Made by a program: the position numbers and the translations under genes
The notes under the pieces: generated by a model
The model's database searches: none
What the model saw: the letters and a program-made list of their open reading frames with translations, nothing else
What the model was told of the DNA's origin: nothing
Virus record (IMG/VR): IMGVR_UViG_2585427789_000028
Coordinates: 1 to 15,233 of that record
Direction: 5' to 3' (one strand)
DNA length: 15,233 bases
From: a virus
Lineage: Duplodnaviria > Heunggongvirae > Uroviricota > Caudoviricetes
Shown here: piece by piece, positions 4,351 through 7,425 of the stretch
Numbering within the stretch: the first letter of the stretch is position 1
Layout of the letters: each line of letters starts with the position of its first letter

Positions 4351-7300
4351 TTAACTTATTAGATCCGCTATTTTCTTTTCTTGATATGCCATCCTTATTA
4401 TTTCAAATTCATCCATACGCATCATGTAAATAGATCTTGTCAATACCAAATTTCCATGTTTATCTTCTTTAATTTCATCTGCACCTTCTATTAATTTAAT
4501 AATCCCAAATTCATTAACTGGAATTGGACAAGACTCAATATCAATAGGATAAAAATCACCAGATTCGTTTTCTCTTACCAAAACACTGGTTTCTTCATAC
4601 GTAATAAGACCATACTTCTTCCAATCAAGACCAGCTTTTGTAATTGCATCCTTAACTTGCTGCGCTACAACTCCAAAATGATATCTGGCATGTTCACTTC
4701 CTTTTCGTAATATTTCATCCTTCATCTTCCACATTTGAAATTTTACACTACCCACGGCTTCAATAAGTTCAGTCGGTATATCCGAGAATTCATCTTTGTA
4801 ATTAACATCTGAAACAACAGTGACAGCATTCTTGCTATATATGTTATTCCAGTATGCTGTCGTTGTACCATTATTAACTGTTCCTATCTGCCCTGTGGGA
4901 GCAAAATAAGGATTATCATTAACTGGATTAGCTATCTCGACAAGAACTTGAGTACCGCCAAAGCTCCCGCCAGGGAACATACGAAACCTGTTTGGTAAGC
5001 GATAGTCATTAGAACCATAAGCATTCCAGCCAGCCCCATTTTCTACAGTACCACGACACCTAAATTCAACAACTTCTTGTATCTGCGGTGTTACATCATA
5101 TCCACCACGTATAGACCAGTACTTATTATTGTCAGATTCTCTGCGGGAATCATGAACACGAAAAGCACCATTACTAGCATACTGAATGGCTTTTTTATAT
5201 TCTGAAGTATTTTCTGAATACCCCCCCAATATCCAGTTCTCTCCTAATTTAAAGGAAACATCAAAAGCAGAACTTATAGAAGAAAGTGGTGAGTTATTAA
5301 CACGAGTTGTCAAGGCGGAATTCAATGGTAGTTCATTAGCAACCCCACGCGATTGTGAAATAAGAAATATCTGTTTTCCTCGTTTCGAATACACTCCATC
5401 GCTGTACTTTTTATCATTCGAGTATTCCCCACCACTAACTTTATTTGTTATCGCCCACATTCTAAATCCATCGGGATCATCCGGAGCAATACCAGAAGCA
5501 GTAGAAAAAGCGGAATAATTCTTTCCTTTGTAAGTTATAATAGATGCTCCAGAATCCCAATTATCCATAGTTAGAATAATAAGGTCTCCTTCATACATAT
5601 CTATACCTTCAGGTTCAAATGAATGGGGGGTCCCATACTTTGGATTATCCATAAGATTTTTGTATCCATAAAGAGAACGAGCCCCCTCAAATGAAAATTC
5701 AGCAAGAATATTACCAGAATAATCAAACTTCTGAATAATATGCAACATGAACGGATGTGTATATCCCCTTAATATATAGATGTACTTACCATCACTGGCA
5801 ACATCTTGAATAACATGAGTATCAGTTCCGCGCTGCGGATGTGGAATCCTGAAATAATACAATGGTCTTGCGTCCAAACTATTGTCAAGGGATTCTACGT
5901 GTATCCTGCTGTAAACAAATACATACCAGGCATCATCATCTGCTGTGCTATCAGTTGCAACAAGAACAACATACCTTCCATCTGAAGATACACACGGGGT
6001 TGCTGAATTATAATTCTGATAAGGATGACCAGAACCAGAATATCCAAAAAGCTGATAAGTAATCACATCAGATTCAGATGTGCTGCTCCCTTTCCAAATT
6101 AATTTTGAATAACCTTTTCCTCCATCATTTCCTCGATATGTAGGCTGGGTAACCATTTGGGTATAAATAAAAAGGTCATCATCAATAACTATCGTAGATA
6201 TTCCCTGATGGTTATTTAATATTGGTGCAGTGTAAGTAGTATTTTGCACTACTGAACCATCATCAGAAAACGAGTATTCAACCAGCCTGCGCTTCTCTAA
6301 AGCAGCTGCTGTTCCTGTACCAACCCCTGGACCATTCGCCGTAAATCGTACACCAATATTATTTTCAGCAGCCCCTATAGTTGTAAAATCAGTTGAACCT
6401 ATACTTACTATTTCATATTCAATTCCGGTTATGAAGTCACCAGCTGATGTTACTTTAGAGTTGAAGTTTCCACTACCTTCAGCACTGCCAACAACCGTTT
6501 GTAAAATAAATAATTTTTTACCATTATAATTCGCATAAGCACACCCTTGACTTGTAGCCTCACCATTTGGAAAAACTTGGGACTCACCAAAACCCATAAA
6601 TGCTTCCATTAAATGGCGTTGCACCAATGTATTACTGATATTATTACGAAGAGAAAGTAGATGACCAGTTTTGGAAAGAATCATCCCTTCCCCTGTCATT
6701 TTGCTTACATCTACTTTCAACGTATCAACAAGATATACTCCAGGTGGAACATAAGCATTTTCAGGAGCCAGAATAAAAGAATTCGTATCATCAGTTATAC
6801 CATCTCCAACAGCAGCATAATCTTTCACACTTACTGTATCACGCATCTTATCCTGGAACGTTCTGTATACAGCTCCAGCACCATACTGGATAAACCATCC
6901 GAAACCACCGACAACACCAGCAATTGCAGCATCCACATACTTACGCATTGAACGATTATTTACAGCGTCCTGCTCAAGTGATGGATCTGCAAGGTTAGAA
7001 ATTTTGTTTTGCTTTGCATCGTAATATTTTGCAAGCAGCGAGGGCTTCATCAATGCACGTCTGAACCACCCAAAACATCGCTGGATCAGCATCGTCAGGT
7101 AGTCGAATGCATCCTCATGAACTTCGGGGAAAAATTTTCCCTGATTGCGAAGATCAGTCTCCTGCACCACATCAAGCACACGCTCTATCGTAATTCGCCA
7201 GCCAGCAGCAAGCGGCGACGGAAGAACCACTTCACCGCCACTATAAGTGCCCGCTCCAGTTACCTTATAACCGGTATCAAGCACCAATTCTGTTACGTTC

Positions 7301-7425
7301 CCGTTCAGATCAGACACCTGAACAACCAGGTCGGATTTTTTGAAAATACGGAAGGTATACGGAAATGATGTCGTAACTCCGTTACCGGTGTATTCGTTGT
7401 GGTCAACTTCGGTTGAGACCGTCAT
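4351..7425 (-). CDS. Tailspike / tail fibre protein: T7 gp17-like N-terminal adaptor, pectate-lyase-like beta-helix, C-terminal intramolecular chaperone (S74-like) domain
   Basis: 1024-aa ORF with GGAG SD. N-terminus (HNEYTGNGVTTSFPYTFRIF) resembles the T7 tail-fibre attachment domain; DYAAVGDGITDDT is a beta-helix depolymerase motif; the C-terminus (SDVNYKDEF...ARYHFGVVAQQVKDA) matches the recalled endosialidase-type chaperone signature. The 5' ~400 nt look GC-normal and the rest AT-rich. Confidence 0.85.
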   Translation of the reverse strand: MTVSTEVDHNEYTGNGVTTSFPYTFRIFKKSDLVVQVSDLNGNVTELVLDTGYKVTGAGTYSGGEVVLPSPLAAGWRITIERVLDVVQETDLRNQGKFFPEVHEDAFDYLTMLIQRCFGWFRRALMKPSLLAKYYDAKQNKISNLADPSLEQDAVNNRSMRKYVDAAIAGVVGGFGWFIQYGAGAVYRTFQDKMRDTVSVKDYAAVGDGITDDTNSFILAPENAYVPPGVYLVDTLKVDVSKMTGEGMILSKTGHLLSLRNNISNTLVQRHLMEAFMGFGESQVFPNGEATSQGCAYANYNGKKLFILQTVVGSAEGSGNFNSKVTSAGDFITGIEYEIVSIGSTDFTTIGAAENNIGVRFTANGPGVGTGTAAALEKRRLVEYSFSDDGSVVQNTTYTAPILNNHQGISTIVIDDDLFIYTQMVTQPTYRGNDGGKGYSKLIWKGSSTSESDVITYQLFGYSGSGHPYQNYNSATPCVSSDGRYVVLVATDSTADDDAWYVFVYSRIHVESLDNSLDARPLYYFRIPHPQRGTDTHVIQDVASDGKYIYILRGYTHPFMLHIIQKFDYSGNILAEFSFEGARSLYGYKNLMDNPKYGTPHSFEPEGIDMYEGDLIILTMDNWDSGASIITYKGKNYSAFSTASGIAPDDPDGFRMWAITNKVSGGEYSNDKKYSDGVYSKRGKQIFLISQSRGVANELPLNSALTTRVNNSPLSSISSAFDVSFKLGENWILGGYSENTSEYKKAIQYASNGAFRVHDSRRESDNNKYWSIRGGYDVTPQIQEVVEFRCRGTVENGAGWNAYGSNDYRLPNRFRMFPGGSFGGTQVLVEIANPVNDNPYFAPTGQIGTVNNGTTTAYWNNIYSKNAVTVVSDVNYKDEFSDIPTELIEAVGSVKFQMWKMKDEILRKGSEHARYHFGVVAQQVKDAITKAGLDWKKYGLITYEETSVLVRENESGDFYPIDIESCPIPVNEFGIIKLIEGADEIKEDKHGNLVLTRSIYMMRMDEFEIIRMAYQEKKIADLIS

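What the first reader, a model, noticed from the sequence alone, without database searches (positions are those of the whole stretch)
4351..7425. Mosaic tailspike located between replication and lysis genes
The tailspike sits directly after the truncated P-like gene and before the lysis cassette, where nin/Q would normally be, with no other structural genes in the window. The first ~400 nt (N-terminal adaptor) look GC-normal while the remainder is AT-rich, suggesting the receptor-binding and chaperone parts arrived horizontally, possibly together with the acetyltransferase. Domain signatures indicate a depolymerase-type spike with a self-cleaving C-terminal chaperone.
Basis: partly seen in the sequence, partly recalled or inferred. 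Interest (0 to 1): 0.5.

Follow-up and report, generated by a model that had tools for sequence, protein, structure and literature searches.

The report
Tailspike in a deleted epsilon15-like prophage
The gene is a real, intact phage tailspike, and it sits next to replication genes only because a 24.7-kb deletion removed the head, tail and packaging genes of an ordinary epsilon15-type E. coli prophage.

Summary
The ORF at 4351-7425 (minus strand, 1024 aa) is real. It is the tailspike of an epsilon15-like (Uetakevirus) prophage integrated at the 3' end of guaA in E. coli.

Its odd position has two ordinary causes. In this phage genus the order tailspike / convergent serotype-conversion gene / holins-endolysin-Rz / att is normal. 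In addition, one 24,663-bp deletion, with a TA microhomology junction at window 7500-7504, fused codon ~161 of the P gene to a point 79 bp upstream of the tailspike ATG. An intact sibling prophage encoding the identical tailspike protein sits at the same locus in strain MLI121.

The GC break is real: 0.49 falls to 0.38 at gene nt 395. The recombination breakpoint against sibling alleles lies further in, at aa ~200-212.

The protein has three parts:
- an epsilon15 gp20-type N-terminal anchor, not a T7-type one;
- a five-bladed beta-propeller receptor-binding module related to Bacillus phage GA-1 gp12 and staphylococcal phage phi11 Gp45, not a pectate-lyase beta-helix;
- a Peptidase_S74 chaperone with a Ser872/Lys877 dyad.

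Depolymerase activity is unproven. The neighbouring NeuO-like acetyltransferase also occurs beside a different receptor-binding module, so co-transfer is not supported. Overall this is an ordinary decaying prophage carrying a new member of a known tailspike kind.

The parts
1163..1179 (-). att core ATTGAGTGGGAATGATT; the lysis-side end of the prophage remnant
   Evidence: This is the exact 17-mer published as the attP/attB core of Uetakevirus vB_EcoP_ZX5 (PMC9782041). It occurs once in the window. The second copy in the matching genome AST205 overlaps the first bases of the annotated guaA CDS, i.e. its 3' end, about 190 bp beyond int.
1290..3108 (-). Complete lysis cassette: Rz (1290-1772) with embedded Rz1 lipoprotein ORF (1298-1573), GH19 endolysin (1769-2398), holin Phage_holin_3_7 (2388-2696), holin Phage_holin_8 (2683-3087/3108)
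   Evidence: Pfam hits, RefSeq annotation of the identical region, and the same order in epsilon15. The LALAGC lipobox in the 1298-1573 ORF is read directly.
3268..4179 (+). NeuO-like hexapeptide-repeat (left-handed beta-helix) acetyltransferase, the putative serotype-conversion gene, convergent with the tailspike
   Evidence: Best solved-structure match is NeuO, the polysialic acid O-acetyltransferase (3jqy), E 2.1e-18 over aa 66-242. Pfam Hexapep is sub-threshold at 21.5 bits against 27. NCBIfam gives only sub-threshold sugar acetyltransferase hits. It occupies the position of the O-antigen modification genes of epsilon15.
4043..4292 (+). Hypervariable octanucleotide array (GCACAGCA)n at the 3' end of the acetyltransferase gene; 16 + 13 copies here, split by GCACTGTGATAA
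   Evidence: Tandem Repeats Finder: period 8, 31.8 copies. Copy number is 16 in AST205, 42 in MLI121, 52 in E100341, 22 in PAR, about 2 in EC0026B and 6-60 in other assemblies.
4307..4331 (.). GC-rich hairpin between the convergent acetyltransferase and tailspike genes; probable bidirectional terminator
   Evidence: Terminator-like site with 10 pairs. Epsilon15 has annotated rho-independent terminators at the equivalent position.
7021..7425 (-). Tailspike aa 1-135: epsilon15 gp20-type particle-binding (anchor) domain; the GC-normal part
   Evidence: aa 1-165 are 70% identical to epsilon15 gp20. PDB Dpo31/Dpo36 tailspike N-terminus matches at E 1.4e-32. Foldseek hit 8ck1_B, 47% identity. PHROG tail families match. 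GC 0.48, GC3 0.50.
6811..7020 (-). Tailspike aa 136-205: neck/linker. Already AT-rich (GC3 about 0.23) but still conserved among E. coli Uetakevirus tailspike alleles. It ends at the recombination breakpoint near the VKDYAAVGDG motif
   Evidence: 99% identity to the EC0026B allele through aa 209, then no similarity. DNA identity to the L014 and L003 alleles collapses at gene nt ~600-640. pLDDT is low at aa 85-195.
4813..6810 (-). Tailspike aa 206-871: receptor-binding module with a five-bladed beta-propeller (core about aa 370-700), a ~50-aa insert (aa ~325-376) and a distal beta domain
4351..4812 (-). Tailspike aa 872-1024 plus stop codon: Peptidase_S74 intramolecular chaperone; predicted autocleavage N-terminal to Ser872
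   Evidence: Pfam PF13884 scores 35.9 bits against a cut-off of 22. PDB matches are 6eu4, 9vvr, 3gud (GA-1 chaperone) and 3gw6 (endoNF chaperone). S872 is invariant and K877 at least 90% conserved. The SDVNYK motif was read.
7426..7504 (-). The 79 bp of native tailspike upstream sequence that survived the deletion, including the GGAG ribosome-binding site 7-10 nt before the ATG. The deletion junction is at 7500-7504 (TA exact, GGATA/GGGTA 4 of 5)
   Evidence: Alignment of the window to the intact prophage L008 on both sides of the junction; sequence read. The identical junction 30-mer is present in AST205 and three draft genomes.
7480..8001 (-). Truncated replication protein P: P homology at 7504-7986, about 161 of 261 codons, followed by 7 foreign codons (HMWFFR plus the junction codon) and a stop
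   Evidence: Pfam P covers profile 1-127 of 162. PHROG P-like helicase loader covers 2-160 of 236. RefSeq marks it a pseudogene. Full-length P is 786 nt in sibling prophages.
7983..15233 (.). Retained early/lysogeny half of the prophage: O/DnaT-like initiator (7983-8798 -), cro-like gene (9165-9395 -), repressor (9550-10134 +), PD-(D/E)XK exonuclease and RecT (10739-12438 +), AlpA-like, PerC-like, MT-A70 methyltransferase and integrase (13983-15233 -)
   Evidence: Pfam, PHROG and NCBIfam hits, RefSeq annotation, and 98% identity to the intact sibling L008.

Best explanation
The window is E. coli chromosome between yfgH/yfgI and guaA. It carries a decayed epsilon15-like (Uetakevirus) prophage of about 14 kb.

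Gene order. In intact members the prophage order is: att, Rz-endolysin-holins, serotype-conversion gene, tailspike, tail, head, portal, terminase, nin-like genes, P, O, cro, repressor, recombination genes, int, att. One illegitimate-recombination event at a TA (GGnTA) microhomology removed 24,663 bp. The deleted stretch runs from codon ~161 of P to 79 bp upstream of the tailspike start. That put the tailspike directly behind O-P'.

The gene. It is intact and identical in protein sequence to the one in intact siblings. The same junction is inherited by several isolates.

The protein. It is a modular tailspike:
- aa 1-135 anchor it to the epsilon15-type tail.
- aa 136-205 form a neck that ends at a recombination hotspot.
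- aa 206-871 are an exchangeable receptor-binding module built on a five-bladed beta-propeller. It is homologous to Bacillus phage GA-1 gp12 and structurally closest to staphylococcal phage phi11 Gp45.
- aa 872-1024 are an S74 intramolecular chaperone. It should drive trimer folding and then cut itself off at Ser872 using Lys877.

What is shown and what is inferred. The anatomy, the deletion, the homologies, the predicted fold and the conserved dyad are shown. Trimerisation, autocleavage and binding of an O-antigen or capsule are inferred. So is the idea that the invariant His/Glu/Asp cluster in the propeller is a catalytic site. Because no virion can be made, the tailspike is most likely a silent passenger. 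It could be transcribed only by read-through from the early rightward operon after derepression.
For: Identity of the element:
- Full-length match (99.8%) to the E. coli AST205 chromosome between yfgI and guaA.
- Intact 39-kb sibling prophage at the same locus in MLI121, with the identical tailspike protein WP_077763239.1 and the same lysis proteins and integrase.
- Same module order in the epsilon15 reference genome. Integration at the 3' end of guaA and the att core are published for Uetakevirus ZX5, and the core is found at window 1163-1179.

The deletion:
- blastn maps window 1-7504 and 7500-15233 to L008 378-7973 and 32632-40365. The junction alignment gives 24,663 bp missing and TA/GGnTA microhomology.
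- The identical junction occurs in AST205 and three draft genomes.
- Independent, different decay of sibling prophages is seen in E100341 and FG31-1.

The protein:
- N-terminal homology to epsilon15 gp20 and to solved tailspike N-termini.
- Beta-propeller fold.
- S74 chaperone and Ser/Lys dyad.
- Allele breakpoint at aa ~200-212.
- Modular receptor-binding-domain exchange behind a conserved ~205-aa anchor in Uetakevirus prophages is already described (PMC10408124).
Against: - Nothing contradicts the deletion model.
- No promoter-like site was found in the retained 79 bp, so expression is untested.
- The receptor is unknown, and host serotypes were not determined.
- Sequence-level membership of the propeller in Pfam Phage_RBD_prop is below threshold (18.5-21.2 bits against 23.7).
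- The AF2 model has low confidence at aa 85-195, 707-722, 845-871 and 965-980. It is a monomer model of a presumably trimeric protein.
- Repeat counts taken from short-read draft assemblies may be collapsed.
Confidence: 0.9

Rival explanations
1. The ~14-kb element is not debris. It is a functional mini-element, satellite-like or a domesticated island, that keeps int, both att sites, repressor, recombinases, acetyltransferase, lysis genes and its own tailspike. It would exploit a superinfecting Uetakevirus for capsids and tails while supplying its own host-range determinant, or donate its receptor-binding module by recombination.
For: - All retained genes except P are intact.
- Both att cores and int are intact.
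- The same deletion genotype persists in at least four other assemblies.
- The tailspike keeps its RBS and is placed in the O-P' transcription unit.
Against: - The boundary cuts through the P coding sequence at a 2-bp microhomology and leaves a pseudogene.
- The retained DNA is 98-100% identical to intact siblings, so the deletion is recent and there has been no time for selection to show.
- Sibling prophages decay in other, unrelated ways in E100341 and FG31-1.
- No packaging-redirection, primase or capsid-remodelling genes typical of satellites are present.
- The junction was not found in the metagenome scan.
Confidence: 0.07
2. The tailspike and acetyltransferase arrived together as one low-GC cassette inserted between the replication and lysis genes.
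For: Both genes are AT-rich (GC 0.37-0.39, GC3 about 0.26-0.28) and adjacent. Together they form one low-GC block from about 3000 to 7030, interrupted only by the GC-rich repeat array.
Against: - The position is native for the genus, and an intact sibling has the same two genes in the same place with all structural genes upstream.
- The identical acetyltransferase is paired with an unrelated receptor-binding module in EC0026B and PAR. The breakpoints are at tailspike aa ~209 and in the last codons of the gene.
- Relatives of the receptor-binding module in P22-like contigs lack an acetyltransferase neighbour.
Confidence: 0.05
3. The ORF is a non-phage adhesin or enzyme, or the arrangement is an assembly artefact.
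For: None beyond the unusual neighbourhood.
Against: - All three modules match phage tail proteins.
- The junction is present in one complete genome and three independent draft assemblies besides this window.
Confidence: 0.01

Closest known systems
Salmonella phage epsilon15 gp20 tailspike and the Uetakevirus right-end module (tailspike / O-antigen conversion genes / holin-endolysin-Rz / attP / int); E. coli members phiV10, vB_EcoP_ZX5, phiv142-3
   Same: - N-terminal 165 aa are 70% identical to gp20, and 86-94% identical to E. coli Uetakevirus tailspikes over aa 1-203/236.
- Gene order around the tailspike is identical.
- Integration is at the 3' end of guaA with the same 17-bp core.
   Different: - Epsilon15 gp20 is matched only over its N-terminal anchor; its receptor-binding part does not match this protein. 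This allele has a beta-propeller module plus an S74 chaperone.
- The conversion gene here is a NeuO-like soluble acetyltransferase, not the membrane O-antigen polymerase and inhibitor of epsilon15.
- The prophage has lost 24.7 kb of morphogenesis genes.
Bacillus phage GA-1 gp12 neck appendage protein (phi29-like podovirus)
   Same: - Homologous over aa ~258-966: 25.6% identity, tblastn E 5e-65.
- Best viral structure match, Foldseek E 2.6e-55 over 771 columns.
- The GA-1 C-terminal chaperone crystal structure 3gud matches aa 872-953.
   Different: - The host is a Gram-positive bacterium whose receptor is presumably a cell-wall polymer.
- The N-terminal attachment domain is different.
- Sequence identity is low.
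Staphylococcus phage phi11 Gp45 receptor-binding protein (PDB 5efv) and relatives (80alpha, P68, NF5); Pfam PF21311 Phage_RBD_prop
   Same: - It shares the five-bladed propeller 'platform' followed by distal beta domains. The phi11 platform is proposed to bind GlcNAc of teichoic acid (PMC4901313).
   Different: - Only about 14% identity, and the Pfam score is below the gathering threshold.
- Gp45 is a siphovirus baseplate protein without an S74 chaperone.
- The paper read here does not mention enzymatic activity for Gp45. This family has invariant His/Glu/Asp residues that could be catalytic.
Endosialidase-type intramolecular chaperone (Peptidase_S74; endoNF 3gw6, T5 pb1 4uw8)
   Same: Pfam hit above threshold, structural matches, and the Ser-x4-Lys dyad (S872, K877).
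   Different: It is attached to a five-bladed propeller and distal beta-domain module, not to a six-bladed sialidase with a triple beta-helix stalk.
NeuO, the phase-variable polysialic acid O-acetyltransferase of prophage CUS-3 (for the neighbouring gene)
   Same: - Best PDB match, 3jqy, E 2e-18.
- It is prophage-borne, lies next to the tailspike, and carries a hypervariable short tandem repeat that encodes a low-complexity peptide tail (PMC3046976).
   Different: - The repeat is an 8-mer at the 3' end, not a 7-mer at the 5' end.
- All three frames encode the same (AAQQHSST)n peptide and stop within 15 nt after the array. Slippage therefore changes tail length rather than switching the gene on and off.
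- The substrate is unknown.

Membership tests
Uetakevirus (epsilon15-like) tailspike | N-terminal particle-binding domain homologous to epsilon15 gp20 / phiV10 RBP (first ~205 aa) | tested here: met
   70% identity to gp20 over aa 1-165; 86-94% to E. coli Uetakevirus tailspikes. PHROG tail families match at E 1e-97 to 1e-138. PDB N-terminal match at E 1.4e-32.
Uetakevirus (epsilon15-like) tailspike | Genomic position: downstream of tail/ejection genes and upstream of (convergent) serotype-conversion genes, lysis cassette and attP-int | tested here: met
   Met in the intact sibling carrying the identical protein and in epsilon15. In the window the upstream half has been removed by the deletion.
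Uetakevirus (epsilon15-like) tailspike | Incorporation as a trimer into a podovirus tail | not testable with these tools
   Needs virions from an intact sibling prophage and proteomics or cryo-EM.
Peptidase_S74 intramolecular chaperone (endosialidase-type) | Pfam PF13884 above the gathering threshold | tested here: met
   35.9 bits against a cut-off of 22, covering the full profile 1-58 at aa 872-933.
Peptidase_S74 intramolecular chaperone (endosialidase-type) | Catalytic Ser at the cleavage site with Lys five residues downstream | tested here: met
   S872 is invariant and K877 at least 90% conserved in 33 homologues. SDVNYK read.
Peptidase_S74 intramolecular chaperone (endosialidase-type) | Autoproteolytic release after trimer folding | not testable with these tools
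   Requires expression and SDS-PAGE or mass spectrometry of wild type against S872A.
Pectate-lyase-like right-handed beta-helix depolymerase tailspikes (PF12708 etc.) | Beta-helix domain detectable by profile and by fold | tested here: not met
   [not shown]
T7-type tail-fibre N-terminus | Profile match to the T7 tail fibre N-terminal domain | tested here: not met
   No such Pfam hit at E <= 0.01. The N-terminus instead matches epsilon15 gp20 and Dpo31/Carin-1 type anchors.
phi11 Gp45-type five-bladed beta-propeller RBP platform (PF21311) | Five-bladed propeller fold closest to solved Gp45-type RBPs | tested here: met
   [not shown]
phi11 Gp45-type five-bladed beta-propeller RBP platform (PF21311) | Pfam PF21311 above the gathering threshold | tested here: not met
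   18.5 bits for the whole protein and 21.2 bits for the isolated domain, against a cut-off of 23.7. This is a structural relative, not a demonstrated family member by sequence.
Phage satellites (PICI / P4-like / capsid-forming PICI) | Dedicated replication (primase/helicase) and helper-exploitation or packaging genes, with structural genes absent by design rather than by a recent deletion | tested here: not met
   The replication loader P is a truncated pseudogene created by the deletion. No satellite-type genes were found in the Pfam or PHROG scans or the RefSeq annotation. The element is collinear with an intact phage apart from one deletion.
NeuO-like phase-variable capsule O-acetyltransferase (neighbouring gene) | Left-handed beta-helix acetyltransferase homologous to NeuO | tested here: met
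   3jqy at E 2.1e-18 over aa 66-242.
NeuO-like phase-variable capsule O-acetyltransferase (neighbouring gene) | On/off switching through frame-shifting repeats in the 5' coding region | tested here: not met
   The repeats are at the 3' end. All frames encode the same peptide repeat and terminate within 15 nt after the array.

The most novel reading that the evidence does not exclude
The deletion derivative may be a maintained ~14-kb island rather than debris. It could still excise, since int and both att cores are intact. It could confer immunity and surface acetylation. It also holds an intact, RBS-equipped tailspike under early-operon read-through. The tailspike could then be supplied to, or recombined into, superinfecting Uetakeviruses, which would make the remnant a reservoir or 'donor' of host-range modules. 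Separately, the beta-propeller module with its invariant His/Glu/Asp cluster could be a new class of polysaccharide-degrading tailspike enzyme shared between Gram-positive (GA-1) and Gram-negative podoviruses.
Probability: 0.12. Interest if true: 0.5.

Novelty: new member of a known kind. Interest (0 to 1): 0.25.

Why it matters
The main value is corrective. The apparent 'misplaced tailspike' is a textbook case of prophage decay acting on a genus whose normal gene order already places the tailspike beside the lysis genes. It should not be read as a new genome architecture.

Three smaller points have some value:
- This uncharacterised tailspike allele shows that E. coli epsilon15-type phages also use a beta-propeller receptor-binding module of the GA-1 gp12 / phi11 Gp45 kind with an S74 chaperone. 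That widens the set of folds to consider when predicting O- or K-antigen specificity, or when engineering tailocins from prophage tailspikes.
- The compositional break and the recombination breakpoint are about 70 codons apart. GC breaks should therefore not be used alone to delimit exchanged modules.
- The neighbouring NeuO-like acetyltransferase, with its hypervariable 8-nt array, is a candidate contingency-type locus that could be tested.

Tried and rejected
- Satellite or purpose-built mini-element. Rejected as the main explanation because the element is collinear with an intact sibling apart from one microhomology deletion that truncates P, and because other siblings decay differently.
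- Apparent 13-kb elements with other tailspikes. I first suspected several such elements among the hits (H2-H4, H6-H8, H11). Annotation of the two inspected, H3 and H4, showed the search had joined pieces in phage (circular) order, with int next to Rz, in genomes with full-length phages. They are not the same deletion.
- Pectate-lyase beta-helix fold. Rejected by the sub-threshold, 38-residue Pfam match and by the fold searches.
- T7-type N-terminus. No Pfam match.
- Co-transfer with the acetyltransferase. Rejected on the EC0026B/PAR arrangement and on the P22-like contexts of distant relatives.
- On/off phase variation of the acetyltransferase by frameshift. Rejected, because every frame gives the same peptide and an early stop.
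- Pfam identity for the ~50-aa insert at aa 325-376. Nothing was found.
- Junction 30-mer in JGI metagenome contigs. No hit.
- NCBIfam for the tailspike. No family.
- Sigma-70 promoter in the retained 79 bp upstream of the tailspike. None was found, and the number of promoter-like sites in the region is no higher than in shuffled sequence.

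
Full report
**What is in the window**

The whole window matches the chromosome of E. coli strain AST205 at 99.8% over 100% of its length. In that genome the region lies between yfgH/yfgI and guaA.

Reading the minus strand from the right, the phage-derived genes are:
- integrase, on the minus strand;
- a plus-strand block comprising the DUF1382 gene, the MT-A70 methyltransferase, PerC-like and AlpA-like regulators, RecT, a PD-(D/E)XK exonuclease and the repressor;
- on the minus strand, a cro-like gene, a small ORF, an O/DnaT-like initiator and a truncated P;
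- the tailspike;
- a convergent acyltransferase on the plus strand;
- two holins, a GH19 endolysin and Rz with an embedded Rz1 lipoprotein ORF.

No head, tail or packaging gene is present.

[quoted passage not shown] In AST205 it is found again at the 3' end of guaA, about 190 bp beyond int. The remnant is therefore about 14.1-14.3 kb, with both att cores and int intact.

**Why the tailspike sits next to P**

Two facts explain the position.

The first is that the right-hand half of the arrangement is native to the genus. In the annotated epsilon15 genome the order is: tail/ejection genes, a small divergent ORF, tailspike gp20, terminator, convergent O-antigen conversion genes, membrane protein/holin, holin, endolysin, Rz/Rz1, attP, integrase.

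The second is that intact siblings exist. Strain MLI121 carries a ~39-kb prophage at the same chromosomal site. It has the identical tailspike protein (WP_077763239.1), identical Rz, holin and integrase proteins, and a full set of terminase, portal, capsid, 'capsid staple gp10', tail and ejection genes between the tailspike and P.

blastn of the window against that prophage gives two collinear blocks: window 1-7504 to L008 378-7973, and window 7500-15233 to L008 32632-40365. Base-by-base inspection of the junction shows that 24,663 bp are missing. It also shows a 2-bp exact (TA) or 4-of-5 (GGATA/GGGTA) microhomology at window 7500-7504.

The deletion starts after about codon 161 of P, whose full length is 261 codons in siblings. 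It ends 79 bp upstream of the tailspike ATG. The P' ORF picks up 7 foreign codons and stops 54 nt before the tailspike start. The tailspike keeps its GGAG ribosome-binding site.

The identical junction 30-mer occurs in AST205 and in three draft genomes: GCA_003982535.1, GCA_958313865.1 and GCA_040759055.1. It is therefore a real, inherited event and not an assembly artefact. It was not found in a scan of JGI metagenome contigs.

Sibling prophages at this locus decay in other ways. E100341 has a portal-to-tail deletion, and FG31-1 has several deletions including loss of the tailspike. That is what random prophage erosion looks like.

**Composition**

The best two-segment model places the break at gene nt 395 (window 7031, aa ~131), with GC 0.494 before and 0.376 after. 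The log-likelihood ratio is 9.7, against a maximum of 7.9 in 300 permutations.

GC3 by region:

| Region | GC3 |
|---|---|
| Tailspike aa 1-140 | 0.50 |
| Tailspike aa 141-235 | 0.23 |
| Tailspike aa 236-870 | 0.26 |
| Tailspike aa 871-1024 | 0.22 |
| Acyltransferase core | 0.26 |
| Most backbone genes | about 0.45-0.60 |

The compositional break is not the module boundary. Against the allele of strain EC0026B the protein is 99% identical through aa 209 and unrelated afterwards, apart from the distantly similar chaperone. At the DNA level, identity to the EC0026B and endosialidase alleles collapses at gene nt ~600-640. This agrees with the published use of the first 205 aa of the phiV10 RBP as the conserved Uetakevirus anchor, and with the described horizontal exchange of receptor-binding domains behind it (PMC10408124).

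About 10% of complete E. coli genomes (537 of 5426) match part of this query, which spans the tailspike region and 116 bp of P. In nearly all listed cases the match is the tailspike N-terminal module. Only 5 carry this whole allele.

**Anatomy of the protein**

The N-terminal 165 aa are 70% identical to epsilon15 gp20, and aa 1-203/236 are 86-94% identical to E. coli Uetakevirus tailspikes. The N-terminus also matches the solved N-termini of Dpo31/Dpo36-type tailspikes (E 1.4e-32) and the Carin-1 tail fibre (Foldseek, 47% identity). There is no T7-type N-terminal signature.

The C-terminus is a Peptidase_S74 intramolecular chaperone:
- Pfam scores 35.9 bits against a cut-off of 22.
- It matches the chaperone regions of tailspikes 6eu4 and 9vvr, the GA-1 chaperone 3gud and the endoNF chaperone 3gw6.
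- The cleavage-site Ser872 is invariant and Lys877 is conserved in at least 90% of 33 homologues.

The middle of the protein has no solved relative by sequence, so I predicted the structure from a 33-sequence alignment. Mean pLDDT is 75.5, and about 90 over aa 200-700. All three structure searches agree that it is a beta-propeller and not a beta-helix:
- Foldseek against the PDB gives the same phage RBPs, then the phi92 endosialidase and influenza neuraminidases.
- Against predicted viral structures the best hit by far is the neck appendage protein gp12 of Bacillus phage GA-1, E 2.6e-55 over 771 columns. tblastn shows the same relationship at 25.6% identity over aa 258-966.

Two Pfam results fit this picture. 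The only trace of 'pectate lyase' is a 38-residue sub-threshold match at the DYAAVGDGxxDD motif, which sits at the recombination breakpoint. The Gp45-type propeller model PF21311 is just below threshold.

The module family is not rare. An exhaustive HMMER search found 1697 cluster representatives at E <= 1e-3 and 111 at E <= 1e-30. The closest relatives, at 41-46% identity, lie in P22-like podovirus contigs from metagenomes.

**Is it a depolymerase?**

This is not established. The phi11 paper consulted here describes the Gp45 propeller as a proposed GlcNAc-binding platform, and a term search of its text found no mention of enzymatic activity (PMC4901313). On the other hand, 41 homologues of only 28-47% identity keep seven polar residues invariant: H406, H467, Q540, E604 and E606 (in an SFEPEG motif), Y674 and D759. 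That pattern is more typical of a catalytic or metal site than of a variable glycan-binding surface.

I rate 'enzyme' and 'lectin only' as roughly equally likely, with a slight edge to enzyme.

**The acetyltransferase**

Its best solved relative is NeuO, the prophage-borne polysialic acid O-acetyltransferase (3jqy, E 2e-18).

Its 3' end carries a (GCACAGCA)n array with 16 + 13 copies in the window. Copy number is 16 in AST205, 42 in MLI121, 52 in E100341, 22 in PAR and about 2 in EC0026B.

Because 8 x 3 = 24, all three frames encode the same (AAQQHSST)n peptide. Every frame stops within 15 nt after the array. Slippage therefore changes the length of the tail and does not switch the gene off. 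This differs from the 5' heptanucleotide VNTR of neuO, although NeuO activity also scales with repeat number (PMC3046976).

The same acetyltransferase (99.7% DNA identity) is paired with an unrelated receptor-binding module in EC0026B and PAR. The two genes therefore assort independently.

**Function in this context**

With P truncated and all morphogenesis genes gone, the remnant cannot replicate as a phage or build a particle. This is an inference from established lambda biology, in which the C-terminal part of P is needed to recruit DnaB.

The tailspike is now the last gene of the cro-O-P' transcription unit. No promoter-like site is seen in the retained 79 bp. It is most likely silent in the lysogenic state.

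Its perfect conservation reflects how recent the deletion is: DNA identity to intact siblings is 99.8-100% over the tailspike region. It does not demonstrate selection.

**Verdict**

This is an ordinary decaying Uetakevirus prophage. The tailspike allele itself is an uncharacterised but unsurprising new member of a known modular family. The beta-propeller fold and the repeat-bearing NeuO-like neighbour are the only mildly interesting aspects.

Noticed in passing
window 4043-4292 (3' end of acyltransferase gene 3268-4179 +): A hypervariable octanucleotide array (GCACAGCA)n. It has 16+13 copies here and from about 2 to 60 in other strains. It encodes (AAQQHSST)n in all three frames, with a stop within 15 nt after the array in each frame. 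It resembles the NeuO VNTR in context but not in mechanism. Counts from short-read drafts may be unreliable.
   Followed up: partly
window ~6298-6450 (tailspike aa ~325-376): A ~50-aa confidently modelled insert (…GDFITGIEYEIVSIGSTDFTTIGAAENNIGVRFTANG…). It matches 3-12 tandem copies in very large unrelated proteins in the representative library. No Pfam family was found and its function is unknown.
   Followed up: partly
window 8405-8424 and 8429-8448 (inside the O/DnaT-like gene 7983-8798 -): Two identical 20-nt hairpin-like units 24 nt apart, which also produce the repeated NGMLNDPK peptide. They look like origin iterons inside the initiator gene, as in lambda O.
   Followed up: no
window 1-381: The chromosomal lipoprotein gene yfgH next to the prophage is frameshifted. 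It is annotated as a pseudogene in AST205, E100341 and EC0026B but is intact in MLI121, PAR and FG31-1.
   Followed up: no
L003 (FDAARGOS_1301) 9520-16308 and L004 (97-3250) 9945-16583: In these chromosomes the integrase lies directly next to Rz, an attP-type junction. The prophage therefore appears in circular or phage order. This suggests tandem lysogeny or integration through another site.
   Followed up: no
L002 (NZ_CP079771.1, 41,027 bp 'plasmid' pHL15EC-2): A complete related Uetakevirus genome is deposited as a circular plasmid of strain HL15 (and of SF10). It carries an SGNH-hydrolase-type tailspike and an acyltransferase-3 gene. It is probably an excised or replicating phage genome captured by assembly.
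   Followed up: no
L006 (E100341) 19531-21943 and L020 (GCA_900448925.1) 1382-3798; NZ_CM129861.1 (SW070919), not fetched: Other copies of the same prophage lineage carry independent lesions: a portal-to-tail deletion, an IS66 insertion upstream of the tailspike, and (in SW070919, from the annotation only) an IS3 element at the tailspike. This shows ongoing erosion around this gene.
   Followed up: partly
window 4351-4380 and L014/L015 downstream of the acyltransferase: The last few codons of the tailspike, the terminator hairpin and the acyltransferase 3' flank are conserved between alleles with unrelated receptor-binding modules. This marks a second (3') recombination boundary for the exchangeable cassette.
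   Followed up: partly
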